Shown: positions 380 through 50,395 of the stretch, piece after piece
How positions within the stretch are numbered: the stretch's first letter is position 1
Layout of the letters: every line of letters begins with the position of its first letter
Assembly: GCA_000961585.1 (NCBI GenBank)
Contig: LADN01000053.1
Location: 438-64,437 of the forward strand
From: Peptococcaceae bacterium BRH_c4a
GTDB lineage: Bacteria > Bacillota > Desulfotomaculia > Desulfotomaculales > Desulfocucumaceae
Reading direction: 5' to 3'
Length of the DNA: 64,000 nucleotides
The notes under the pieces: generated by a model
What the model was told of the DNA's origin: nothing
The model's database searches: none
Seen by the model: the letters and a program-made list of their open reading frames with translations, nothing else
Program-made: the position numbers and the translations under genes

Positions 380-1231
380 TTAACTACCAAAAGCCGTTAA
401 CATATTCCAAAGAATCGGGAAGCCTATCATGGCGAAAAGCGGCAGAAGAATAAATACTATGATTGGGATAAGCAGCTTAATGGTCAGTTCTCCAGCAATC
501 TTTTGGGCCTCTTGTTTCCTTCTGGCGAGAATCTTCTCAGCGTGGTGTTTTACCACCGGCTCCAAGGGACTTCCATACCTCATTGCCTGCTGTATTTTAT
601 TAACCAGCCCGGTAAGTTCCGGTATCCCGCAGCGAAGTGACATTTTATTCAACGCCGCCGCCCTGTTATCCCCGGTGGCCATATCTGTGAGCACCCGGTT
701 GATTTCTTTGGACAGCCCCCCCGGCATGGTTCTGGCCACCACCTCCAGGGCCATGATCAGGTCAGCCCCCTTTAAGGCATTGCCCAAAAGCATACAGAAA
801 TCAGGTATGTCCTTTTTTATCGATCCGATCCTGGCCCTGACCATTTTGTTTAACCATATCCCCGGAGCCAGGTACAACAATAGAGCCGACAGAACACCCC
901 AGTAAAAATCAATCCATCCCGACAGCGCCGGCGCTATGAAAATGGCCAGCCCTATAACTGGTAAAGCAAACCGCAATCCGGCAAAATATTCGGGCTGCAT
1001 GTTTAAATCGGCCTGTATTAATTTTTTTTGCAGTACCGTAAGGGAAACATCATTGCCCAGTTTCCTGCCGGTTTTATGCAGCAGTTCATCGGCGCTCCCT
1101 TTTAGTTCGACCCCTCCGGGGAGCTTTAACCTGTTTCCCGCCACCGCCACCAGGATCGATAAGGCCATCAGTGTTCCGGCCAGCACGGCCACGTCGGCTT
1201 CTTTTATCCGTTCAGCCAGGTATCCCAGCAA
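380..1231 (-). CDS. tadC: TadC-like pilus platform protein (type II secretion system F family)
   Basis: 283-aa polytopic membrane protein whose cytoplasmic helical domain resembles GspF/TadC. It pairs with a paralogous upstream gene, 3 nt from the tadB-like stop. Confidence 0.7.
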   Translation of the reverse strand: MLGYLAERIKEADVAVLAGTLMALSILVAVAGNRLKLPGGVELKGSADELLHKTGRKLGNDVSLTVLQKKLIQADLNMQPEYFAGLRFALPVIGLAIFIAPALSGWIDFYWGVLSALLLYLAPGIWLNKMVRARIGSIKKDIPDFCMLLGNALKGADLIMALEVVARTMPGGLSKEINRVLTDMATGDNRAAALNKMSLRCGIPELTGLVNKIQQAMRYGSPLEPVVKHHAEKILARRKQEAQKIAGELTIKLLIPIIVFILLPLFAMIGFPILWNMLTAFGS

Positions 1232-1234
1232 AAA

Positions 1235-2065
1235 CTACACCCCCTGTCCCAGGGAATTTTTTATGATCTTTCTGGTAAATACATTTCCAAGGATAATCCA
1301 GACGGAGGACATAAAAAATACGAAGCTGCCTTCTGCCGTATGGAAAATAGGCTCCGTAAATTCCGGCGACATTGCCCTGGCAAGACCGATGAAAAGAAAG
1401 GGAAGTCCCGTTAGCAGCCTCATGGTCATCATGTTCTGGGACACGGCGGCTGAAACAATACTGCGAAAACTTTCTTTATCTTCATAGGCTTCCATGGAGT
1501 GGCGGCATATCTCCGCCAGGTCGCAGCCCACCCGGTTGTAAAGCCCTATGGCTATGGAAAGGGCTTTTAAATCCTCCCAGCCGGTTTCCTTTCTCACGCT
1601 CTCTATGGCCTGGGCCAGGGTATCTCCTGTCCTGGTTCTGCGAATCACCTCGTAAAAAACATCCCTGGCCGGCCGGGGCATGTTGGGCACGGCGTCCTCC
1701 AGGGCCTGATAGGGGTTCATCCCCCCGTACATGGCGCTTTCCAGCTGGCCCAGCACGTCTACGAACTGGCTGCTTAAAAGCTCCTTGCGATCCTCCTCCT
1801 GCTTGTTTTTCCACCACTTTAAAACAAAGGTGCCGGAGCATAGGCCCGGCACCGCAAAATACCACGTCCCGGTAATGGCATAGGCTATACCGCCAAGCCC
1901 TACCCCCCCGGCCAGTGTGATGATCAGGTCCTGGGAGGACTTTCCCGGCCCTTTCCGGGTATCGAATTTTTCATCACTGAGCCTTACCGACCGGGCTTTA
2001 AGCCTTATCTTACTCCCGGTTACCGCCCAAAAAACCGCCACTGCCATTAAAAAAGCCGCCAACAT
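1235..2065 (-). CDS. tadB: TadB-like pilus platform protein (type II secretion system F family)
   Basis: 276-aa protein with an N-terminal TM, a soluble helical domain and C-terminal TMs. It lies immediately (2 nt) downstream of the CpaF-type ATPase gene. Confidence 0.7.
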   Translation of the reverse strand: MLAAFLMAVAVFWAVTGSKIRLKARSVRLSDEKFDTRKGPGKSSQDLIITLAGGVGLGGIAYAITGTWYFAVPGLCSGTFVLKWWKNKQEEDRKELLSSQFVDVLGQLESAMYGGMNPYQALEDAVPNMPRPARDVFYEVIRRTRTGDTLAQAIESVRKETGWEDLKALSIAIGLYNRVGCDLAEICRHSMEAYEDKESFRSIVSAAVSQNMMTMRLLTGLPFLFIGLARAMSPEFTEPIFHTAEGSFVFFMSSVWIILGNVFTRKIIKNSLGQGV

Positions 2066-2067
2066 TA

Positions 2068-3435
2068 CTATACCGACTTATTCCACCCCCCTTCGTCGGT
2101 CATGGCCTCCCGTCGATGAAATTCCTCAGCCACCCATTCAAAGGAGTCTTCTTTGGGGTTGTACTGCCACAGTACGTTTAGTTTTAGATTAAGCACCCCT
2201 CCGTCCAACCTTTCGGCGCCTATTACCTCGCATATATGGTCCATCCTGCGCCTGCCTGTCCTGTCTTTTAAAACATGAATAAAAATGTCCACGGCGTCTG
2301 CCACCTGCTCCACTATGCCGTCGTAGGGCATATCCATTTTGGCCATCTGAACCATGTTTACCAAACGCTTGGTACAGTGCCTGGAAGAGTTGGCGTGGCC
2401 GGTGGTCATGGACCCCTTGTGGCCGGTATTCATGGCCTGCAGCATGTCAAAGGTCTCACCGGCCCTGCACTCTCCCAGGATTACCCTTTTGGGAGCCATT
2501 CTAAGGGCGTCCACCACCAGATCCCTCTGGGTTATCTCTATTTTTGTGTCTGCGGTGGCCGGCCTGGCCTCCAGGCTTCTGACATTTGAATGCTGGAGCT
2601 GCAGCTCGGCCGGATCCTCAATGGTGACAATGCTCTCCTCCTCCGGAATGAAGGAGGCCAGGCAGTTTAAAAAGGTGGTTTTTCCGGAGCTTGTGCCCCC
2701 GCTGATGACTATGTTTTGTTTTGATAAAACAGCGGCTTTTAAAAAATCCATTACCTCCGGGGAAATGACATTACGGTTAATCAGGTTTTCGGGTGTCATG
2801 TCTTTACGGAACCGGCGTATGGTAAACATTGTGCCGTGCACGGCCACCGGAGGTATGTGGGCAATCATCCTGGAACCGTCGATGAGCCGGGCGTTTACCT
2901 TGGGGTTGGCCATGTCTATCTTCCTGCCGGTGGGAGCCAGCATCCTTTCCAGCACGTCCCGGATATGTTCCTCGTCTCGGAATCTCACACCCTCGGCAAC
3001 ACGTTCCACCCCCTTTTTTTCCACCCTCACAATGTCTTTGCCGGCCTTTATTTCAGTGACTTCCGGGTCATAAAAAAAGGGCTCGATGGGCCCGTACCCC
3101 AGCAGATCGTTGCCCAGTTCCTCCACCAGCACCTTCGATTGCACCTCGCCCAGGGGAATGTCCTTTTCCAGCAGGCCCCTCAAAACTATTGACTTCAGCT
3201 TTGACCGCACTATGGGATCCCGGCTTTTTGTCCTCTCCTCGGGCTTCAATATATTGCTCAGGGTGGTCTGGACATAGCCCCGGATCGCCCTGTACTTCTC
3301 TTCGGTAAGCCCCGGTATTCTCTCGCTGATTAAAAGCGAATACCCCTCCGCCTTTTCAATCTCTGCTGTATCCTCTATGACGTATTCCCCGCACCTTTGA
3401 GCCAGGTTTTTAATTAATTCAAGGTCCATAATCAA
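2068..3435 (-). CDS. cpaF: CpaF/TadA-family pilus secretion ATPase
   Basis: 455 aa. Walker A ISGGTSSGKTTFLN, Asp box/Walker B IVTIEDPAELQ, His box MNTGHKGSMTTGHAN. This layout is typical of the VirB11/CpaF subfamily. Confidence 0.9.
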   Translation of the reverse strand: MIMDLELIKNLAQRCGEYVIEDTAEIEKAEGYSLLISERIPGLTEEKYRAIRGYVQTTLSNILKPEERTKSRDPIVRSKLKSIVLRGLLEKDIPLGEVQSKVLVEELGNDLLGYGPIEPFFYDPEVTEIKAGKDIVRVEKKGVERVAEGVRFRDEEHIRDVLERMLAPTGRKIDMANPKVNARLIDGSRMIAHIPPVAVHGTMFTIRRFRKDMTPENLINRNVISPEVMDFLKAAVLSKQNIVISGGTSSGKTTFLNCLASFIPEEESIVTIEDPAELQLQHSNVRSLEARPATADTKIEITQRDLVVDALRMAPKRVILGECRAGETFDMLQAMNTGHKGSMTTGHANSSRHCTKRLVNMVQMAKMDMPYDGIVEQVADAVDIFIHVLKDRTGRRRMDHICEVIGAERLDGGVLNLKLNVLWQYNPKEDSFEWVAEEFHRREAMTDEGGWNKSV

Positions 3436-4317
3436 TCACACCGCCCTTTCCCGAACCGGCAGCCTTCCGGCCAGCACCTGCAGCGCCCTGGTAAAGTCAT
3501 CCCTCTCACGGCTGTGGACCATCATCTGGCGCCGGTTGTTTTCTTCGGCCACAGCCACGGAATAGGGCATAACACCTAAAATATTCAGTCCCAGGCCGCT
3601 CTCCAATTCCCCGGCCCTTATTCCTCCGGGTATCCCGGCCTGGTTTAATACCGCGTATACTCTGTCCTGGCAGCCCAGCCTGGCCATGAAACAATTATTC
3701 TCATTGAGAAGGTCCAGACTTGCCCTGTCCGGCTTGAAAACAGTAAGGATCAAATCAGAAACAAGGGCAGCCGCCCATGTGTTGTTGCCTGTGCCGGCCG
3801 GCGGGCAGTCCAGTATTATATAATCATATGTTTCTTTGAGAAGTGTCAGCATTTTAAAAACCAGAGTTGGAGTAACCTTCTCCTCGTGGTCGTAGTGTAT
3901 AACCCCGGGCGCCACCATGATCCCCGATGAGTGGTTGTATAACCCCCTGATAATGTCCCTGGGGCCGTGTATGTCTTCCCAGTCCAGAATATTTACCAGG
4001 CACTGATCAGCCGGAAGCCCCATCCTGCTCCTTATGGTTCCATACCCGTCAAGATCAATCAGAGCCACCCTTTCCGGATTTGATAGGGCCAGCAAAGCGG
4101 CCATGTTCACAGCCACCGTTGTGGCCCCGTCCCCCTTGGCGGAACTTTGTACGGTGTATATTTTACCTTGCCCGGCCAAAGCGTCAGGGCTTATCGGGAT
4201 GTTATACAGCCTGGTATTCTTTTCCTGGGGTTCTATTATCTTTGGCCCGCCCTCGCCAGCCTTCCATAATACCACTTCCTCTTGCAGCCCGGGTTTGTCT
4301 TTTTTCTTAAAAAACAC
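3436..4317 (-). CDS. tadZ: TadZ/CpaE-like ParA/MinD-fold pilus localisation protein
   Basis: 293 aa. Deviant Walker A SAKGDGATTVAVNMA keeps the signature Lys but replaces the P-loop Lys with Ala. DYIILDCPP acts as Walker B. Zero-nt spacing to cpaF. Confidence 0.7.
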   Translation of the reverse strand: MFFKKKDKPGLQEEVVLWKAGEGGPKIIEPQEKNTRLYNIPISPDALAGQGKIYTVQSSAKGDGATTVAVNMAALLALSNPERVALIDLDGYGTIRSRMGLPADQCLVNILDWEDIHGPRDIIRGLYNHSSGIMVAPGVIHYDHEEKVTPTLVFKMLTLLKETYDYIILDCPPAGTGNNTWAAALVSDLILTVFKPDRASLDLLNENNCFMARLGCQDRVYAVLNQAGIPGGIRAGELESGLGLNILGVMPYSVAVAEENNRRQMMVHSRERDDFTRALQVLAGRLPVRERAV

Positions 4318-13294: not shown

Positions 13295-13624
13295 TCAATC
13301 ACCCTCCCGGCGGTATACAAATATCCGTCTTCTAAACCTGGAGGAAAGCTTATCAAACAGGCTGGGCGCCATAATCCTGCCGGTGACGTTATCCTCCAGA
13401 AATACCAGGGCAGCCGCCGCATAAAGCGGTATTCCCTGGTGAAAATGCCTCAGCATAAAATTATCAACAGGCAAATCGGGAATAACTCTGGACAGCTCGT
13501 AGCTCAGTTTGCCTGCGGCCATGACAACCAGCAGCTGAATCAAAGTCATGCCGAAAATAAACCTTTCGGCACTGGTTTTCTGTATAAGAGGATGCCTGTC
13601 TCCGTACAAAAATGTCACCTCCAA
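13295..13624 (-). CDS. PrgI/VirB3-like small membrane protein
   Basis: About 105 aa. ERFIFGMTLIQLLVVMAAG plus a second hydrophobic helix and a basic tail, as in PrgI-family proteins that precede VirB4 in Firmicutes elements. The start is uncertain (TTG 13624, GTG 13618 or TTG 13609 after GGAGG). Confidence 0.5.
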   Translation of the reverse strand: MEVTFLYGDRHPLIQKTSAERFIFGMTLIQLLVVMAAGKLSYELSRVIPDLPVDNFMLRHFHQGIPLYAAAALVFLEDNVTGRIMAPSLFDKLSSRFRRRIFVYRREGD

Positions 13625-13630
13625 CAGAAT

Positions 13631-13708
13631 AACCGCCTATCGGCGGTGCCGTCTTGCAGACGGCGGAATCCAGAATCCAGAAGCCAGAATCCAGAATAGT
13701 GACAGCAA
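13631..13708. repeat. Mosaic intergenic repeat, copy 1 (hairpin module + CCAGAAT heptamer array + GTGACAGC linker)
   Basis: Hairpins CCGCC-TATC-GGCGG and GCCGTCT-TGC-AGACGGC. Then CCAGAAT/CCAGAAG x4 (13670-13697), then AGTGACAGC. A 30-nt block, TGCCGTCTTGCAGACGGCGGAATCCAGAAT, is identical to 16778-16807. Confidence 0.85.
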
Positions 13709-13810: not shown

Positions 13811-14248
13811 CTATTTAACGATATCATTGAGTGGGACATTCAAAATATCCAGCACGAAAGCCACTATTGCCTCTGCCTTGTATACCAGCACCGCTGAAAG
13901 GGTGGCTGTTACTCCGCCCCCTTTGATGATCTCAACCTTCCTGGAATCCCTTAGCCCGCCCCCCGCAGCCTGAACTCCCATAAACAAAACCGCAATGGCA
14001 AAGAAAGTGATAAACAGCGTCCTGACGGAATTAACTATGCTCCCTCCTATTTTGCCCACCTGATTTTTCAATTCATCAGCACCCTGACTGCTAACCCCCT
14101 TGGACAGGTCATAGTCGGCTTTCTGACTGGAAGTTTCTGCCTGGGCAGGATCTATTACTCCCTGCATTGTTAAAAGAGGCATTATCGATACAATCATGAT
14201 GAAAAGCATAAAGGCAGCTGTATACGTTGGATTAAGCCTGATATTCAT
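13811..14248 (-). CDS. Small secreted/membrane protein, candidate VirB2/TrbC-like T4SS pilin
   Basis: 145 aa. N-terminal signal/anchor (...DPAQAETS), then two hydrophobic helices split by a short charged loop (LFITFFAIAVLFMGVQAAGGGLRDSRK...VTATLSAVLVY). This is VirB2-like topology, called by architecture and position only. Confidence 0.35.
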   Translation of the reverse strand: MNIRLNPTYTAAFMLFIMIVSIMPLLTMQGVIDPAQAETSSQKADYDLSKGVSSQGADELKNQVGKIGGSIVNSVRTLFITFFAIAVLFMGVQAAGGGLRDSRKVEIIKGGGVTATLSAVLVYKAEAIVAFVLDILNVPLNDIVK

Positions 14249-16355: not shown

Positions 16356-16757
16356 ATGAAAAATCTGATCAAGGTAGACCAAAAAACACGCCGGGACAAA
16401 ATACTGGAATTGCTTAAATACAGAAACCTGACTCTGGGCGATGTCCGAAAGGCTGCGGGCTTATCCAGGGCCACCATGAGCCGCCTGATGAACAGCCCCG
16501 AAGGCTATGCGCCATCGGAGGACACCATAAAAAAAATTGCCCTGGTACTGGAGGTCAACCCCTTATATCTTAAGGATGAAAATGTTGTGGGCCCGGAGGA
16601 GATTTTTCCCTATCTCACCGAAGATGACATAAAGTTTTTCATGGACCTGAAAAATTTGCCCTTTATAAAGCTCACCAAAGAAATTGCAGCCGAGGGAATA
16701 AGCCCCGATGATATGAGGAAATTAGTGCAAATACTGCTGTCTACCCGGGACGACTAA
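16356..16757 (+). CDS. XRE-family HTH transcription regulator
   Basis: 133 aa. RNLTLGDVRKAAGLSRATMSRLMNSPEG..PSEDTIKKIALVLEVNPLYL is a classic HTH_3 pattern. Confidence 0.6.
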   Translation: MKNLIKVDQKTRRDKILELLKYRNLTLGDVRKAAGLSRATMSRLMNSPEGYAPSEDTIKKIALVLEVNPLYLKDENVVGPEEIFPYLTEDDIKFFMDLKNLPFIKLTKEIAAEGISPDDMRKLVQILLSTRDD

Positions 16758-16760
16758 AAT

Positions 16761-16890
16761 AACCGCCTTGCCGGCGTTGCCGTCTTGCAGACGGCGGAAT
16801 CCAGAATTCAGAATTCAGGAGACAGAATTCTGGTTCGATTAAACAGCATAACAGTCTTTGGTTTTTCCATTCTGAGTTCTGAGTCCCGTC
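16761..16890. repeat. Mosaic intergenic repeat, copy 2
   Basis: Same hairpin module as copy 1, then CCAGAAT/TCAGAAT/TCAGGAG/ACAGAAT (16801-16828) ending in the palindrome CCAGAATTCTGG-like. An inverted ACTCAGA-type tract follows at 16867-16885. The 20 nt TCAGAATTCAGGAGACAGAA (16808-16827) equal the reverse complement of 58759-58778. Confidence 0.85.
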
Positions 16891-16892
16891 TT

Positions 16893-17759
16893 TTAAAAAT
16901 TAATCACCATTCCCTCATATGCAGCGGCGCACTGTATATCATGCTTATTCTGTAAAAACCAGATCTGCGCTTCCTCCTGCAACAGGTCCAACTGTTCATC
17001 GGTGCGGTCAGGATCATGATGATATAGCACCAGGCGCCTGACTCCTGCAGCCACAGCCAGCTCACAGGACTGGCTTATCATGCTGTGCCCCCACCCATGC
17101 TTCAGTGGCATGTCCTGCTGGGTGTACTGGGCATCGTGAATAAGCAAATCTGCATTTTTACAAAAACTGACAAAAGAGTCGAAATCATTTACTTTCCCTT
17201 CGGGAGGATTCAGCTCATTGTCTGTAAGGTATACCACCGTTCGGCCGTCATTCTCAATACGATAACCATAGGCTCCTCCCGGATGGTTGGTGGCTATGCG
17301 GGAAATACAGAAACCGTGCTTTTCCATAAACTCGGATATATCGCTGGTGATAATCTGGTATTTGGACGGCAGGCGATCCATGCTGACCGGAAAATGAGCG
17401 CCATCCATCTGCTTAAACAGGGAATTAAACATAGTTTCGCCCTGTTGATATGGAAACACATATATTACCCTGTCTTTTTGAAAGATAGGTATAAAGAAAG
17501 GAAATCCCTGGATGTGATCCCAGTGAATATGCGTTACAATGACAAATATATCTGTTTTTTGCGCCACCAGTTTTTTGCCCAGTTCACGAATACCCGTCCC
17601 TGCATCAAGAATCAGCGTTTTTTCATTATCCAGGTGAATACTGACACAGGAGGTATTACCCCCATATTTCTTTGTAGATACCCCCGGGCTGGGAATTGAA
17701 CCACGAACTCCCCAGAATTTGACCGCCATTGACTGCTTCATCTTTATCTTCCTCACCAT
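16893..17759 (-). CDS. MBL-fold metallo-hydrolase
   Basis: 288 aa. THIHWDHIQGFPFF (HxHxDH motif) plus downstream His/Asp ligands (NHPGGAYGY, HDAQY, HSM). Confidence 0.8.
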   Translation of the reverse strand: MVRKIKMKQSMAVKFWGVRGSIPSPGVSTKKYGGNTSCVSIHLDNEKTLILDAGTGIRELGKKLVAQKTDIFVIVTHIHWDHIQGFPFFIPIFQKDRVIYVFPYQQGETMFNSLFKQMDGAHFPVSMDRLPSKYQIITSDISEFMEKHGFCISRIATNHPGGAYGYRIENDGRTVVYLTDNELNPPEGKVNDFDSFVSFCKNADLLIHDAQYTQQDMPLKHGWGHSMISQSCELAVAAGVRRLVLYHHDPDRTDEQLDLLQEEAQIWFLQNKHDIQCAAAYEGMVINF

Positions 17760-19055: not shown

Positions 19056-19559
19056 ATGCTGAACAAAATACTTGATCAAATGAAGATTGTCTTCGGAGAC
19101 GACAGCAGGAGGATAAAGCATGCCCTGGATGTACTAAAATGCGCCTCCTTCTTATGTGATTCGGAATACCCGGCTGGTACCGAAATAAAAAAGACAGTGG
19201 AACTGGCCGCCGTTCTTCATGACATAGGCATAAAACAGGCTGAGGCCCTTTATAACTCGTCCGCCCCAGCCTACCAGCACCTGGAAGGACCGCCCATAGC
19301 CCGCAGCATCCTTAAAAAAACCGGCCTGGCGGAGGATACCATTGAAAGGGTCTGCCATATCATTGGAAACCACCACCTTAAGTCGAAAATAGACGGCATG
19401 GATTTTCAGATCCTGTGGGAAGCCGATCTACTGGTCAATTTGCCTGACTTTCCTGTGCTGAACAGGGATTTTAAAACTTATGAAAAAATGGTTTTTAATA
19501 ACTTCAAAACAGGTACAGGCGCCCAGGCGGCCCTGGATCTACATGGCAGGAATTCATAG
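19056..19559 (+). CDS. HD-domain phosphohydrolase
   Basis: 167 aa. HALDV..., AAVLHDIG and IIGNHH are the metal-ligand motifs of the HD superfamily. Confidence 0.75.
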   Translation: MLNKILDQMKIVFGDDSRRIKHALDVLKCASFLCDSEYPAGTEIKKTVELAAVLHDIGIKQAEALYNSSAPAYQHLEGPPIARSILKKTGLAEDTIERVCHIIGNHHLKSKIDGMDFQILWEADLLVNLPDFPVLNRDFKTYEKMVFNNFKTGTGAQAALDLHGRNS

Positions 19560-19978
19560 CAAAAAACGCCCTGACGAGCGTTGCCGGCTAAGGAAAGGGG
19601 ACACACCTCTCTAGTGTGACTGCCTCCGTGGGTCAGAGGAATGTCCCCGATGCTTAGACGGCGGAAGCCAGAAGCCAGAATTGTGACAGCCTGCCTTAAA
19701 AGCGACCCTCAAGAGACCCCACAGCGACATGCAGTGAGGGGGAGGGGTTTTAGTCCAGGCGGATGCTGGAATAGTCGTCAGTCGTAGGACTTCAGACGTC
19801 GGAATAGTTTCATTTTACCTCTGGTCAAAAGACTTTAAGACCTACGACTGAAGACTGACGACCGACGACTGATACAGCCAGTTCAGCCGGAGGATAAGTA
19901 GATCGGACTCAAACCCCTCCACCGGCCACAGAGTGACCCAGGAGCGACCCTCAAGCGACATGCAGTGAGCTTGCTTCC
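19560..19978. repeat. Composite repeat element A (terminator module, nested hairpin, heptamers, conserved 70-nt block, about 180-nt hairpin, flanking direct motif)
   Basis: The 70-nt block 19675-19744 is the near-identical reverse complement of 27527-27596. A long imperfect hairpin runs 19741-19920, with arms GGAGGGGTTTTAGTCC / GGACTCAAACCCCTCC and internal GACTGAC-type heptamers. The motif GCGACCCTCAAG..CGACATGCAGTGAG occurs on both sides (19702-19737, 19944-19969). Confidence 0.85.
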
Positions 19979-20317
19979 TTATATAGCTGCCTCACCTGTT
20001 TCACCTGTTCTTATCCTGACTGCGGTGTCCACAGGGCTGACAAAAATCTTTCCGTCACCAATTTCTCCCGTCACAGCCGATTTTCTAATCAGATTTACCA
20101 CCGCATCTGCAGTTTCGTCCTTAACAATTACCTCAAGCTTAACCTTGGGCAGCAGGTTGATGGTCAGCTCGGTTCCCCGGTATACCTCTTTACGCCCCTT
20201 CTGAAGCCCGCAGCCCATCACCTGCATAACCGTCATTCCATGTACCCCGAACTGATTTAACGCCTCTTTGACATCTTCCAGTTTTCCAGGCCGAAGTATG
20301 CACTCGATTTTTTTCAT
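19979..20317 (-). CDS. glnB: P-II family nitrogen regulatory protein (orphan paralog)
   Basis: 112 aa from ATG 20317 (AAGGAGA sits 6 nt upstream). [20 protein letters not shown]..., T-loop [14 protein letters not shown], and C-terminal [10 protein letters not shown]...RIRTGE. Confidence 0.9.
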
Positions 20318-20352
20318 ATTCATTCTCCTTCTCTATTTTACAGAGATATTAT

Positions 20353-25976: not shown

Positions 25977-27158
25977 GTGAGGTATACTCCAAAAAAGGAA
26001 CTGGCCCTGCGGGTGGCCAAACTTCAGGACCTAATGCGACAAAACGGCATAGAAGGCTCAATACTGGTCCAGAATGCCGATCTCTTTTATTTTACAGGAA
26101 CGGTACAGCGATCACACCTCTTTATCCCCTCGGAGGGAACGCCTGTTTTAATGGTTAAGAAAAACTTCCAGAGGGCCAGGGAGGAATCATCCATGGATAA
26201 TGTGCTGCCCCTGGAAAATGCAAGGGACTTACCCGGTGTACTGGAGTTATACGGGTTTAAGAATCCGGGGGTAATTGGTTTCGAGCTGGATGTACTGCCC
26301 GCTGCGCTATATTTAAAGTATCAGAAATTATTTCCCTCCGCCAGGATAGTTGATATAAGCAGCTTGGTTCGTACCGTCAGGATGGTTAAGTCCCCCTATG
26401 AAATAGCAATTATACAGAATGCGGCCACACTTAATCATACCATGTTCTCCAGTGTTAAAAACTTTTTAAAAGAAGGAATCTCAGAGGTGGAACTGGCGGG
26501 TAAGCTGGAGGCGATTTACCGTGAATGCGGTCACCAGTGCCACGTAAGGATGAGAGGCTTCAACCAGGAGATGGCCTATGGACATCTCCTGTCCGGATAC
26601 AATATGGGAGTGCCCAGCTTTCTGGACAGCCCCACCGGCGGTTCCGGGTTGAATCCTTCCTTCCCCCAGGGAGCCGGACAAAAAAAAATAGGCAGAAACG
26701 AGCCTTTGATGGTGGACTACGTTGGGGTTTACGATGGTTATATGGTTGACCAGGCCAGGATGTTCTGCCTTGGACGCCTTCCGGAAAAATTTGTCCGGGC
26801 ATACGAGGCGGCGATCACCATACAGGATGAAATTAAAAAAAGAGCTTTACCGGGAACGTCCTGCGAAGATCTCTATAATCTGGCAATAGGCATGGCTGGC
26901 GAATATGGGCTGACAGATCATTTCATGGGTTATCCGGAACCCGCTCCCTTTATCGGGCATGGGGTGGGGATAGAGCTGGATGAAATGCCTGTGCTGGCCA
27001 GAGGATTTCAAACGCCCCTGGAGACCGGTATGGTACTTGCGCTGGAGCCCAAATTCATCTTTCCCGATGGAGCCGTTGGCATAGAAAACACTTTTCTGGT
27101 GGGGAACAACGGACTTGAAACACTGACGGTGTTCCAGGAAAATATAATATATATTTAA
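25977..27158 (+). CDS. M24-family metallopeptidase (Xaa-Pro aminopeptidase/creatinase-like)
   Basis: 393 aa with a GTG start. N-terminal creatinase-like domain, then a pita-bread fold with metal ligands in VDYVGVYDGYMVDQAR, GHGVGIELDE and ALEPK...ENTF. Confidence 0.85.
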   Translation: MRYTPKKELALRVAKLQDLMRQNGIEGSILVQNADLFYFTGTVQRSHLFIPSEGTPVLMVKKNFQRAREESSMDNVLPLENARDLPGVLELYGFKNPGVIGFELDVLPAALYLKYQKLFPSARIVDISSLVRTVRMVKSPYEIAIIQNAATLNHTMFSSVKNFLKEGISEVELAGKLEAIYRECGHQCHVRMRGFNQEMAYGHLLSGYNMGVPSFLDSPTGGSGLNPSFPQGAGQKKIGRNEPLMVDYVGVYDGYMVDQARMFCLGRLPEKFVRAYEAAITIQDEIKKRALPGTSCEDLYNLAIGMAGEYGLTDHFMGYPEPAPFIGHGVGIELDEMPVLARGFQTPLETGMVLALEPKFIFPDGAVGIENTFLVGNNGLETLTVFQENIIYI

Positions 27159-27174
27159 AATGACCGCCCGTCAG

Positions 27175-27196
27175 GGCGTTTTTTTATCGTTAAGGA
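27175..27196 (+). terminator. Intrinsic terminator after the M24 gene (first copy of a duplicated 22-nt terminator)
   Basis: CGCCC-GTCA-GGGCG followed by TTTTTTTA. The same 22 nt recur at 27634-27655. Confidence 0.7.
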
Positions 27197-27197
27197 A

Positions 27198-27655
27198 AGT
27201 ATATGCCGCATTAAAGCATTAAAGCACTGAAGCACCAAAGCATTTTTATGCAAGCCCAGAGTTTTTCCGGGGTCGCTCCGGGGTCACTTGAGGGTCGCTG
27301 CATTGTCGCTAATGGGTAGGCGGAGCGATTTAAGTCCGGCCTGCATTACCTCCTGCTGCAACTGTCTCTAAACTCGGTCGCCAACGGAATGCCGACCGCC
27401 TCCAACGCCGCATCCTTGCGTCGATTCCGGCTTCCGGCTGCGTCCTGCAGCCGGCTCGGCATTCCGTAGGCTCGGTCGTTAAGAGACAGTAGCAGCCTCC
27501 GGTACATTCCGCACGGACTTAAATCACTCCCCCTCACTGCATGTCGCTGTGGGGTCGCTTGAGGGTCGCTTTTAAGGCAGCCTGTCACCATTCTGGATTC
27601 TGGATTCTGGCTTCTGGATTCTGGATTCCCAAGCGCCCGTCAGGGCGTTTTTTTA
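27198..27655. repeat. Composite repeat element B (inverted relative to element A), bracketed by a duplicated terminator
   Basis: 8-mer array ATTAAAGC x4 (27220-27251) and 11-mer array GGGGTCGCTCC-type x4 (27279-27322). About 190-nt hairpin (27337-27525, arms GATTTAAGTCCG / CGGACTTAAATC). Conserved 70-nt block 27527-27596, then ATTCTGG heptamers x5 (27590-27624), then terminator copy 27634-27654. Confidence 0.85.
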
Positions 27656-27754
27656 TTGAGTCTTTAGGCGTACCACTATTTGCCGGTGGCTTTCCTCTCC
27701 GAGAAACTATATATTAAAAAAATAGAGATACTCACGAAAGCCAGGGGGTGAAGC

Positions 27755-34063: not shown

Positions 34064-34743
34064 AGCATAACCCCTTTCTCTCCAAAGTTTATTTTAAAAT
34101 AGTTTGTCCTTTTCTTAGAAGCTTATTCCATCAGGCTTTGGCACATTCCTGTTATATCCGGGCAAGTTCCGCAGCCTCAACAATTTTACCAGAAAATTTC
34201 AGCGCAATCAACTTCTAATATACCCTCCCTGGTTATAATTTTTCTCTGTTGCCGGACAATATATATTGAAAAAGTAAATGCCAATCTTTACCCCTTTAAG
34301 TATACAGAATATATCTTACCACTTACTTTACAACCAGTCCAGAATTTTTTCCAACTTTTTTATTAAACCCAAAATAATATCTCCAATTTCTACTTTCACT
34401 TTTTAAGGGGCTTTCGTTTTCATATTCCTATAAAAATCCCACTGTTATTAGAGTAAACCTACAGCATCGACAAAATATTCAGTTATTAATAACATTAGCC
34501 CAGTTCTTCCATACCACTGTTTTTGCTTGTTGCCGTGGATATTCCCTGGTAATATACTTAATAGTATTGTTGTTGTTAGAATTAATTTATCCTGAATTCG
34601 GGGTGCATAAACATGCGGAAAAAGCTAATTATTCTCATTTTTTTTGTTGCTGGCGGCTGTTCCCGGTTATGTCAGGAATCAGCCCCTGTTAGAGAGCGTC
34701 TTCGGGTGACACTTTTCTGACTTGAATAATTTCCCGGGCAAGT

Positions 34744-34764
34744 AAAAAACCGCCCAACGGGCGG
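34744..34764 (-). terminator. Intrinsic terminator ending the murE-like 3' region
   Basis: On the minus strand, CCGCCC-GTT-GGGCGG is followed by TTTTTT. It lies 140 nt beyond the stop codon, and repeat tracts fill the gap. Confidence 0.65.
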
Positions 34765-34905
34765 ACTGGAATCCAGAATCACATGCCGCTGATGCGGCAA
34801 CATCATAGTACGAAAATGAAGTATTCTTTTCTCTATGCTTGGCTGATTGCTGACAGCTATTTTCAAAGTAAAGCTTATAGCTTACAGCTTATCGCTTACC
34901 GCCAT
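34765..34905. repeat. Mosaic repeat tracts in the murE-like 3' region
   Basis: AGCTTAT/AGCTTAC/AGCTTAT/CGCTTAC (34872-34899) abut the stop codon. Also present are GCTGATT-GCTGACA (34842-34855), GGAATCCAGAATCAC (34768-34782) and the hairpin GCCGC-TGAT-GCGGC. Confidence 0.75.

Positions 34906-50044: not shown

Positions 50045-50395
<351 letters not shown>

What the first reader, a model, noticed from the sequence alone, without database searches (positions are those of the whole stretch)
27159..27660. Composite element B is bracketed by a perfect 22-nt duplication of the M24 gene terminator, an insertion-like footprint
CGCCCGTCAGGGCGTTTTTTTA occurs at 27175-27196 and again at 27634-27655. The roughly 440 bp between them carry, in order:
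- an ATTAAAGC 8-mer array x4
- an 11-mer array with a GTCGC/GTCAC core x4 (one helical turn per unit)
- a roughly 190-nt hairpin
- the 70-nt block shared with element A, in inverted orientation
- five ATTCTGG heptamers

There are two readings. The element may have inserted into the terminator and duplicated it, giving a long target-site duplication. Or the terminator hairpin may be the element's own terminal module; element A ends with the related CGCCCTGACGAGCG.

The 11-bp phased repeats resemble protein-binding iteron or centromere-like arrays. No partition or replication gene is nearby.
Basis: seen in the sequence. Interest (0 to 1): 0.65.

Follow-up and report, generated by a model that had tools for sequence, protein, structure and literature searches.

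The report
Abundant mosaic repeat carrying its terminator
"Element B" is one copy of a non-coding, modular repeat found more than a hundred times in related subsurface Firmicutes DNA, and the "duplicated terminator" is that repeat family's standard end-piece sitting next to a second copy of it, not an insertion scar or a plasmid-style protein-binding array.

Summary
The tandem arrays and a long hairpin are also present.

Element B is not a local oddity. A 21-base pattern from it hit at least 117 metagenome stretches (139 sites). These share one architecture:
- a T-tract, then the left module TCGTTAAGGAAAG and an ATTAAAGC array
- a GGGTCGCT 11-mer array
- a nested hairpin with interchangeable cores
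- a second GGGTCGCT array
- ATTCTGG heptamers and optional small hairpins
- a terminal intrinsic terminator

The exact 22-mer closes the element in 43 different genomic contexts. In 8 of these the next element starts directly behind it, as at B's left edge. So the duplication is two family end-modules. It is not a target-site duplication: 31 full copies show neither a TSD nor terminal inverted repeats.

Three relatives keep the M24-to-metallophosphoesterase adjacency with spacers of 122-193 nt and no element, so B is a lineage-specific gain.

B's hairpin core matches Rfam TwoAYGGAY on the strand antisense to the terminators. No rep, par or transposase gene is associated.

Best reading: a new family of non-autonomous mosaic repeats that sit behind T-tracts and terminators. 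How the family spreads is inferred, not shown.

The parts
27165..27187 (+). Bare family-type intrinsic terminator (hairpin CGCCCGTCAGGGCG plus T7AT) that ends the M24 peptidase gene. This is the left copy of the 23-nt duplication. Its T-tract forms the left junction of element B.
   Evidence: The same 22-mer is the last module of 43 other family copies, and 8 of those are followed directly by TCGYT of a next element.
27187..27209 (+). Left-end module TCGTTAAGGAAAGTATATGCCGC. This is the 5' boundary of the repeat.
   Evidence: Sixty-four distinct left junctions aligned. Similarity starts at the T-tract/TCGTT, and the upstream sequence is unrelated between copies.
27208..27244 (+). ATTAAAGC 8-mer array (4.6 units), followed by the small palindrome GCATTTTTATGC (27240-27251).
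   Evidence: TRF. It is conserved in most full copies, with 2-4 units.
27269..27310 (+). Left GGGTCGCT/GGGTCACT array with an 11-nt period (4 cores).
27316..27538 (-). Nested long hairpin made of an outer stem, a middle stem and a core. It is better paired on the - strand.
   Evidence: The antisense strand is the more stable one in 48 of 50 unique copies. 72 consensus pairs, 7 of them with compensatory changes.
27347..27504 (-). Core that matches Rfam RF01731 TwoAYGGAY (47.1 bits, gathering score 43).
   Evidence: Seven further family copies score 44-51 bits, all antisense to the element's terminators.
27533..27570 (+). Junction block CTCACTGCATGTCGCT plus the right GGGTCGCT 11-mer array.
   Evidence: This was the pattern used for the census. 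Right-array unit number varies between copies (0-2 units besides the junction block's own GTCGCT).
27571..27633 (+). 3' module: TTTAAGGCAGCCTGTCACC, five ATTCTGG-type heptamers, then ATTCCCAAG.
   Evidence: Heptamer number is 2-5 between copies, and the 'CAAG + terminator 1' arrangement occurs in 26 of 124 unique copies.
27634..27656 (+). Element B's own terminal intrinsic terminator. This is the right copy of the duplication and the 3' boundary of the repeat.
   Evidence: Similarity of all loci to the window stops at 27666.
19559..19969 (-). Element A: a second family copy in the opposite orientation. It has a different hairpin core, a long-hairpin variant of the 3' module, and a truncated left module.
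   Evidence: The A-type core recurs in other loci.
13618..13707 (-). Solo 3' module: CTGTCAC, heptamers, GCCGTCTGCAAGACGGC, then a type-2 terminator. It lies downstream of the ORF at 13811-14248.
16748..16832 (-). Solo 3' module acting as the terminator region of the metallo-beta-lactamase-fold gene (16893-17759, - strand).
34739..34780 (-). Short, degenerate 3' module (GATTCTGGATTCC plus a terminator hairpin and T-run) behind the Mur ligase gene.
   Evidence: The similarity is weak (42 nt at 76%).

Best explanation
Element B (about 27187-27656, 470 nt) is a full-length copy of a previously undescribed family of non-coding, modular ('mosaic') interspersed repeats. The family occurs in uncultivated Peptococcaceae/Gracilibacter-like Firmicutes from subsurface water.

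**Architecture of a unit.**
- a 5' module, TCGTTAAGGAAAG plus an ATTAAAGC array
- GGGTCGCT 11-mer arrays on both sides of a long nested palindrome whose core is interchangeable (B carries the TwoAYGGAY-like core)
- a 3' module of ATTCTGG heptamers, optional small hairpins and an intrinsic terminator

**Position.** Units lie in intergenic DNA directly behind an oligo-T tract plus A/G. That tract is most often the U-tract of a gene's terminator, or of a previous unit.

**How the duplication arose.** Each unit ends in its own terminator. A unit behind a gene therefore leaves termination intact and offers a new T-tract for the next unit. This gives head-to-tail tandems and many short 3'-only copies that now serve as gene terminators. 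The 23-nt 'duplication' is a bare family end-module that terminates M24, followed by B, which ends in the same module.

**What is shown.** Family membership, the boundaries, modularity, the T-tract junction, the absence of TSD and TIR, the absence of the element in relatives, and the strand asymmetry of the hairpin.

**What is inferred.**
- The family spreads as a non-autonomous mobile element, moved in trans by an enzyme not encoded nearby.
- Its persistence rests on near-neutral insertion behind terminators.
- The palindrome is selected to fold in one single strand, either as RNA or as a single-stranded DNA intermediate.
For: **Copy number**
- In the source run the M24 gene has depth about 8-12, while 27180-27589 collects a summed depth of 1000-3800 from 248 contigs. 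The same pieces are deep in unrelated sediment and groundwater runs.
- A 439-nt copy identical to B lies in a different context in Gracilibacter sp. BRH_c7a LOEZ01000031.1.

**Boundaries**
- The loci match the window only at 13618-13707, 16748-16832, 19561-19969 and 27157-27666.
- Sixty-one of 64 left junctions follow a T-run. The hairpin upstream is a family terminator in 26, an unrelated hairpin in 22, and absent in 16.

**End module**
- The exact 22-mer occurs in 43 contexts and is always terminal. It is followed by unique DNA in 35 and by the next unit in 8.
- The alternative terminator keeps its own TTATTTTA tail whatever the left flank is.

**Element properties**
- The 31 full copies measure 390-530 nt and show no TSD. 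The end sequences are not inverted repeats (and direct reading).
- Arrays have 1-3 units and heptamers 2-5. There are at least four core types and some chimeric arms.

**Gain in this lineage**
- Relatives L130, L134 and L135 have the M24-to-metallophosphoesterase gene pair with spacers of 193, 161 and 122 nt, against 596 nt here.
- None has the element or the 22-mer, yet all share the hairpin CCACTATTTGCCGGTGG just to the right of B.

**Context**
- No coding capacity and no rep, par or transposase gene nearby.
Against: - No enzyme that could move the element was found. The 0.88 Mb of loci contain no multi-copy ORF and no long 'autonomous' version.
- No presence/absence polymorphism was seen among the seven locus pairs that overlap. 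Mobility therefore rests on copy number, shared boundaries and empty orthologous sites at only 73-77% protein identity.
- The M24-side terminator is 'bare', with no heptamers in front. None of the 43 other contexts shows this, so its origin (a remnant, a deletion or recombination) is not settled.
- The hairpin folds better on the strand opposite to the terminators. A single transcription unit does not explain that.
- The depth excess in the source run may come partly from other genomes in the community, so the copy number in this organism's own genome is not measured.
Confidence: 0.85

Rival explanations
1. Functional small-RNA gene family. The nested hairpin is a TwoAYGGAY-class RNA, proposed in the literature as a CsrA-sequestering sRNA. 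It would be transcribed from the strand antisense to the terminators. The flanking 11-mer arrays would be regulator-binding sites. Many copies exist because the RNA is useful.
For: - Rfam TwoAYGGAY is matched above the gathering score in B and in 7 further copies, always on the antisense strand.
- That strand has more G-U pairs and lower folding energy. The consensus fold is -98.3 against -67.7 kcal/mol, and there are 169 against 39 G-U cells.
- The loops read CAGGAC and CAAGGAUG, with GGA in the loops. This is the feature that led PMC4333381 to propose CsrA binding.
- Seven pairs show compensatory changes.
Against: - No sigma-70-like promoter and no terminator for an antisense transcript (and direct reading).
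- The core is interchangeable with unrelated cores in the same scaffold. Element A's core, for example, has no Rfam match.
- No csrA homologue in the 0.94 Mb examined, though the query came from memory and the genome sampling is incomplete.
- No RNA run holds the sequence.
- The compensatory changes mostly separate two subtypes, so they represent few independent events.
- This reading can coexist with the repeat-family reading rather than replace it.
Confidence: 0.15
2. RNA-mediated copying. The unit is a transcript that ends at its own intrinsic terminator. It is reverse-transcribed and integrated at oligo-T tracts, in the manner of a SINE. This would give constant 3' ends and variable 5' truncation.
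For: - The 3' boundary coincides with the end of the terminator's T-tract.
- Junctions lie at T-tracts.
- Away from the search anchor there are 23 3' modules but only 6 left modules, and in the window 5 against 1.
- No TIR and no TSD.
Against: - No reverse transcriptase was seen in the window or the loci.
- Many short forms start at a module boundary (…GGCTGTCACC|ATTCTGG) rather than at random points.
- No internal promoter is evident.
- The hairpin's asymmetry points to the other strand.
Confidence: 0.08
3. Element B inserted into the M24 terminator and duplicated 22-23 nt of it as a long target-site duplication.
For: - An exact 23-nt direct repeat brackets B.
- Relatives lack the element.
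Against: - The same 22-mer ends 43 other copies in other contexts.
- Most copies have unrelated hairpins on their left.
- Only the T-rich 8 nt is identical on both sides, and in just 7 of 31 full copies.
- None of the relatives' M24 terminators resembles the 22-mer.
Confidence: 0.04
4. The 11-bp phased arrays are iterons or centromere-like sites of a replicon or partition system.
For: Evenly spaced 11-nt direct repeats on both sides of a palindrome.
Against: - The arrays are dispersed over more than 100 chromosomal intergenic sites.
- Unit number varies from copy to copy.
- The neighbouring genes are housekeeping genes, with no rep or par gene.
- No match in 72,556 plasmids.
Confidence: 0.02

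Closest known systems
BIMEs / REP mosaics of enterobacteria (bacterial interspersed mosaic elements)
   Same: High-copy, intergenic and non-coding. Built from palindromes combined with other short motifs in variable 'mosaic' orders. Mostly found downstream of genes. Can act on transcript ends.
   Different: - No sequence relation.
- The palindrome here is 200 nt or more and nested, not 20-40 nt.
- No unpaired GTAG or CGTC tag (criterion in PMC3733652).
- No RAYT gene seen.
- The element carries a true intrinsic terminator and tandem arrays with periods of 7, 8 and 11 nt.
Pneumococcal BOX and SPRITE repeats (PMC3049150)
   Same: - BOX has fixed end modules with a variable number of internal tandem units, and it folds into a long stem.
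- SPRITE is a dispersed repeat that looks like a Rho-independent terminator. It is enriched at the 3' ends of genes and may have been co-opted as a terminator.
- Both ideas are combined in the family described here.
   Different: - BOX has TIRs and TSDs; this family has neither.
- Different phylum-level lineage and no sequence similarity.
- Here the hairpin cores are interchangeable, and units sit precisely behind T-tracts.
Rfam RF01731 TwoAYGGAY RNA motif
   Same: - B's core and 7 relatives pass the family's gathering score.
- The core has a long closing stem and two hairpins with GGA-containing loops.
- The original seed sequences from Psychromonas ingrahamii are also multi-copy and embedded among other repeated modules.
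   Different: - Scores are only 1-8 bits above threshold.
- One loop is CAGGAC, one base short of AYGGAY, and B's other loop is AAGGAU.
- Here the motif is only one of several alternative cores of a larger DNA repeat.
- None of this family's flanking modules occur in the published TwoAYGGAY alignment.
Classical MITEs
   Same: Small (390-530 nt), non-coding, high copy number, intergenic, strongly structured, and with no transposase of their own.
   Different: The defining terminal inverted repeats and target-site duplications are absent. A different element in the same loci does show a 13-nt duplication, so such footprints are detectable in these data.
Class C (IIC) group II introns
   Same: Mobile elements that characteristically lie just downstream of intrinsic terminator motifs, meaning an inverted repeat followed by Ts (PMC1702495 abstract). 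The 'safe site' logic is the same.
   Different: - No group II intron RNA domains; Rfam found none.
- No intron-encoded protein.
- The size is 0.45 kb rather than about 2 kb.

Membership tests
Rfam RF01731 TwoAYGGAY | Covariance-model score at or above the curated gathering score (43 bits). | tested here: met
   47.1 bits at 27347-27504 on the - strand. Seven other family copies score 44.2-50.8 bits.
Rfam RF01731 TwoAYGGAY | Two terminal loops, each carrying AYGGAY. | tested here: inconclusive
   B's loops read CAGGAC (one base short) and AAGGAU. Sister copies have AUGGAU or AUGGAC in the second loop.
Rfam RF01731 TwoAYGGAY | Acts as an RNA, that is, it is transcribed on the matched strand. 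| not testable with these tools
   No RNA run holds the sequence. The only indirect support is the G-U strand asymmetry.
MITE | Terminal inverted repeats. | tested here: not met
   The left end is TCGTTAAGGAAAGTATATG and the right end is ...CGCCCGTCAGGGCGTTTTTTTA. The two are not complementary (direct reading).
MITE | Target-site duplication flanking each copy. | tested here: not met
   Of 31 full copies, 27 show no match between flanks, and the other 4 show only 2-3 nt. A very short T-rich duplication (TTTAT-like) cannot be excluded.
REP/BIME (RAYT-associated) | A short 20-40 nt palindrome with an unpaired GTAG or CGTC tag, and an associated RAYT gene. | tested here: not met
   The palindromes have no unpaired tag (direct reading against the criteria). 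No repeated ORF lies beside copies in 0.88 Mb. Whole genomes were not available.
IS200/IS605-derived non-autonomous elements | No TIR and no TSD, insertion 3' of a fixed short motif, sub-terminal hairpins at both ends, and a Y1 transposase in the genome. | tested here: inconclusive
   The first three points fit: the T-tract plus A/G junction is seen in 61 of 64 copies. A hairpin is present only at the right end. No transposase was found in the sampled DNA.
Plasmid/phage iterons or centromere-like arrays | Arrays confined to a replicon's origin or par locus, next to rep or par genes. | tested here: not met
   More than 100 dispersed copies, housekeeping neighbours, and no plasmid or viral match.
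CsrB/Rsm-type protein-sponge sRNA | An own promoter and terminator, many GGA loops, and a CsrA protein in the organism. | tested here: inconclusive
   GGA loops are present on the antisense strand. No promoter or terminator was found for that strand. No csrA was found in 0.94 Mb, with incomplete sampling and a query sequence taken from memory.

The most novel reading that the evidence does not exclude
The family is a bacterial 'terminator-to-terminator' retroposon. Its RNA ends at its own intrinsic terminator and is copied back into DNA at the oligo-T tracts of other terminators. That would explain the constant 3' ends, the T-tract junctions, the lack of TIR and TSD, the head-to-tail tandems and the excess of 5'-short copies. 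On this reading, orphan RNA motifs such as TwoAYGGAY would be passenger cores of such elements.
Probability: 0.08. Interest if true: 0.85.

Novelty: new variant of a known kind. Interest (0 to 1): 0.42.

Why it matters
- **Ordinary explanation.** A feature that looked like a unique insertion scar or an origin-like array is one copy of a dispersed repeat.
- **Orphan RNA motif.** An Rfam motif of unknown function (TwoAYGGAY) turns out to be one interchangeable core of a larger mosaic DNA repeat. Any test of the CsrA-sponge idea has to take this into account.
- **Gene terminators.** In this lineage a sizeable share of gene terminators are repeat-derived modules. Six such modules lie in this 64-kb window.
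- **Genome assembly.** The repeat breaks assemblies. Many contigs end inside it, and an identical 439-nt copy lies in another contig. This matters for binning and for scaffolding these subsurface genomes.
- **Possible new insertion mechanism.** The precise T-tract junction without TIR or TSD hints at an insertion mechanism not yet described for small bacterial repeats.

Tried and rejected
- **Genome-contig scan.** No genome-wide census in a single genome was possible.
- **Plasmid search in distant mode and viral contig scan.** Nothing found.
- **Laying reads across the whole element.** The contig at M24 depth continues into TCGTTA, which is the filled form.
- **RNA evidence.** Only two runs of unknown kind hold pieces of the element. 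They behave like DNA assemblies.
- **Synteny between the window and the 117 loci.** None beyond the repeats.
- **Presence/absence polymorphism among overlapping loci.** None in 7 pairs.
- **Search for a mobilising gene.**
  - All-against-all comparison of ORFs of at least 120 aa found no multi-copy gene.
  - No long version of the element exists.
- **Promoters.**
  - No convincing sigma-70-type promoter on either strand.
  - A sigma-54-like TGG-N9-TGC in the 3' module has the wrong spacing and is not conserved between copies (direct reading).
- **Mini-ORF.** The SD-like AAGGAAAG plus ATG mini-ORF in the left module was rejected, because many copies have ATA instead of ATG.
- **Orientation relative to neighbouring genes.** Only a weak bias: the right neighbour is convergent in 63 cases and co-directional in 40.
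- **REP tags.** GTAG or CGTC tagging was considered after and rejected, because the tetranucleotides are paired or absent.
- **Published TwoAYGGAY alignment.** This family's flanking modules were searched for in it and are absent.
Full report
**1. The observation**

- The 22-mer CGCCCGTCAGGGCGTTTTTTTA is found exactly twice, at 27165-27186 and 27634-27655. The identity runs to 23 nt, and shuffles expect none.
- Both copies score as intrinsic terminators on the + strand.
- TRF confirms an 8-mer array (27208-27244), an 11-mer array (27543-27571) and a heptamer array (27590-27628).
- A further 11-nt-spaced array lies at 27269-27310.
- The hairpin spans about 27316-27538 and is very stable on either strand.
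- Element A (19559-19969) is an inverted copy with the same order of modules but a different hairpin core.

**2. It is one copy of a large repeat family**

- *Contig breaks.* Assemblies of the source run break in or at the element: a contig carrying M24 ends at 27192 or 27397, and one carrying the downstream gene starts at 27423.
- *Depth.* When contigs of the source run are laid on the region, the M24 gene has depth about 8-12. The element collects a summed depth of 1000-3800 from 248 contigs. Unrelated sediment and groundwater runs show the same excess.
- *Pattern scan.* A pattern from the junction block (CTCACTGCATGTCGCTNNNGGGTC) found at least 117 stretches in JGI metagenome contigs, 139 sites in all. 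Many lie right at contig ends.
- *An identical copy elsewhere.* One genome contig, Gracilibacter sp. BRH_c7a LOEZ01000031.1, starts with 439 nt identical to 27165-27603. There it sits behind another family unit, not behind M24.
- *Extent of similarity.* The loci resemble the window only at 13618-13707, 16748-16832, 19561-19969 and 27157-27666. These define two full units and two solo 3' modules. A degenerate fifth module at 34739-34780 was seen only within the window.

**3. Anatomy of the family**

Reading in the direction of its terminators, a unit consists of:
1. a T-tract ending in A or G
2. TCGTTAAGGAAAGTATATGCC
3. two to four ATTAAAGC-type units
4. GCATTTTTATGCAAGCCCAGAGTTTTTC
5. one to four GGGTCGCT units at 11-nt spacing
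6. a nested palindrome
7. CTCACTGCATGTCGCT, with up to two further GGGTCGCT units
8. TTTTAAGGCAGGCTGTCAC
9. two to five ATTCTGG-type heptamers
10. ATTCC
11. optionally the hairpin GCCGTCTGCAAGACGGC, or a longer hairpin nested in its loop (as in element A)
12. a terminal terminator of one of two types: CGCCCGTCAGGGCG-T7-A, or CCGCCGRCAAGGCGG-TTATTTTA

The palindrome has conserved outer stems and at least four unrelated cores. Some copies have arms from different subtypes. Full copies measure 390-530 nt.

**4. What the 'duplicated terminator' is**

- The exact 22-mer occurs in 43 different contexts in 0.88 Mb of loci. It is always the last module of a unit.
- It comes after the small hairpin in 33 contexts, and after CAAG, as at B's right end, in 9.
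- It is followed by unique DNA in 35 contexts. In 8 it is followed directly by the TCGYT of a next unit, exactly as at B's left edge.
- In front of 64 distinct left ends there is a T-run in 61. The hairpin before that T-run is a family terminator in 26, an unrelated host hairpin in 22, and absent in 16.
- In 31 full copies with both flanks there is no flank duplication. The T-rich tail at the right end goes with the type of terminal hairpin, not with the left flank.

The 23-nt repeat around B is therefore two family end-modules and not a target-site duplication.

One point stays open. The M24-side module is bare, with no heptamers before it, which none of the 43 other contexts shows. In the closest relative of M24 (92% identity) homology ends 12 nt before this hairpin and a different gene follows. 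This suggests an earlier rearrangement or a decayed unit at this spot.

**5. B is a gain in this lineage**

- Three relatives (M24 73-77% identical) keep M24 directly upstream of the metallophosphoesterase gene. Their spacers are 193, 161 and 122 nt, against 596 nt here.
- They have their own unrelated terminators or none, and neither the element nor the 22-mer.
- All share the small hairpin CCACTATTTGCCGGTGG, which in the window lies 17 nt to the right of B.
- Both junctions of B are backed by independent k127 contigs.

**6. Strand and RNA questions**

- Rfam reports one hit in the window: TwoAYGGAY (RF01731) at 27347-27504 on the - strand, 47.1 bits against a gathering score of 43.
- Seven more family copies score 44-51 bits, all antisense to the unit's terminators.
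- The palindrome is more stable on that antisense strand in 48 of 50 unique copies, with means of -114.9 against -103.0 kcal/mol.
- The consensus fold is -98.3 against -67.7 kcal/mol, with 169 against 39 G-U cells.
- Of 72 consensus pairs, 7 show changes on both sides. These mostly separate two subtypes, so they reflect few independent events.
- TwoAYGGAY was proposed as a CsrA-binding sRNA (PMC4333381). Its discoverers noted very long closing stems. Its Psychromonas seed sequences are multi-copy and embedded in other repeats. That fits the view that the motif is a module of mosaic repeats.
- I found no promoter or terminator for an antisense RNA, no RNA data and no csrA in the sampled DNA.
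- It remains unexplained why the terminators and the hairpin 'prefer' opposite strands.

**7. How it most likely works**

*Shown:*
- a high-copy, non-coding, modular repeat with sharp boundaries
- a junction behind oligo-T tracts
- its own terminator at the 3' end
- head-to-tail tandems and many 3'-only short forms: 23 3' modules against 6 left modules away from the search anchor, and 5 against 1 in the window
- all five 3' modules in the window co-oriented with the gene just upstream, so that they serve as that gene's terminator

*Inferred:*
- Units are moved in trans and land behind T-tracts. A unit that brings its own terminator does little harm there and creates the next landing site.
- The same 'safe site' logic is known for class C group II introns (PMC1702495). 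Terminator-like repeats are known from pneumococcus (SPRITE, PMC3049150).
- The enzyme is unknown. No repeated ORF or long version lies near the copies. The window's neighbours are housekeeping genes.
- The lack of TIR and TSD argues against a classical MITE. A single-strand (HUH-type) or RNA-mediated route would fit, but neither is shown.

**8.

The 11-nt arrays may well bind a protein, for instance the unknown mobilising enzyme. They are not iterons or centromeres of a replicon:
- they occur at more than 100 chromosomal intergenic sites
- their unit numbers vary
- they have no rep or par neighbours
- they have no plasmid or viral counterpart

**9. Verdict**

The TSD and iteron ideas are not supported. 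This is a new family within the known kind 'small mosaic interspersed repeats'. Its unusual traits are T-tract junctions, a self-carried terminator, nested palindromes with swappable cores (one of which matches TwoAYGGAY), and opposite strand logic of hairpin and terminator. Interest is moderate.

Noticed in passing
window 27673-27689: The small hairpin CCACTATTTGCCGGTGG, followed by CTTTC, lies upstream of the metallophosphoesterase gene. It is conserved in the window and in three relatives whose spacers are otherwise unrelated (L130, L134, L135). It may be a regulatory or leader element of that gene.
   Followed up: partly
L117:4589-4783, also L054, L066, L093, L105, L113-L115: A second, unrelated dispersed element: an approximately 125-nt palindrome (AGGAGGCTGTTGAAAAAG...CTTTTTGAACAGCCTCC) plus a tail. 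It occurs in at least 8 loci. In L117 it sits inside a family hairpin arm, flanked by a 13-nt direct duplication, TGCAACTGTCTCT. So a true target-site duplication is detectable in these data.
   Followed up: partly
L084:12581-12842: The 5' part of an OLE (ornate large extremophilic) RNA gene, 190.6 bits, cut by the end of the locus. The carrier organism in the JGI metagenome therefore has OLE RNA.
   Followed up: no
L088:8267-8415: A c-di-AMP (ydaO/yuaA) riboswitch aptamer, 86.9 bits.
   Followed up: no
window 19980-20279 and 50046-50345: A 300-nt direct repeat at 75% identity. The first copy is the P-II nitrogen-regulator gene at 19979-20323 (Pfam P-II). The second copy coincides with the 112-aa ORF 50045-50383, which was not scanned and is presumably a P-II paralogue. 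Element A starts directly at the stop codon of the first copy.
   Followed up: partly
window 27152-27164 vs L132:1200-1217: The last codons of M24 differ from the 92%-identical relative, starting 12 nt before the terminator hairpin. That relative has a different gene 11 nt after its stop codon. The 3' end of M24 seems to have been remodelled where the repeat module begins.
   Followed up: partly
L033, L086 (hairpin region; sequences): Chimeric palindromes whose two arms come from different subtypes, leaving mismatched stems. This suggests recombination between copies.
   Followed up: no
window 27316-27538 and all family copies: The palindrome carries its G-U (G-T) pairs on the strand opposite to the unit's terminators. 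No single transcription unit explains both features.
   Followed up: partly
Supplement of PMC2864571 (TwoAYGGAY seed; Psychromonas ingrahamii NC_008709): The published TwoAYGGAY examples from this genome occur at several sites. They are flanked by other repeated blocks, including a hairpin CGCCGUCAGGGCG that is nearly the same as the terminator hairpin here.
   Followed up: partly
L130:8137-8165: A relative with an empty M24 site still carries a heptamer module, ATTCTGGCTTCTGAATTCTGGATTCCCA, elsewhere. The family, or a cousin of it, therefore reaches beyond the window's organism.
   Followed up: no
window 27187-27218: The left module reads like a ribosome-binding site plus a 3-codon ORF (AAGGAAAGTATATGCCGCATTAA). 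Many copies have ATA instead of ATG, so it is probably not translated.
   Followed up: yes
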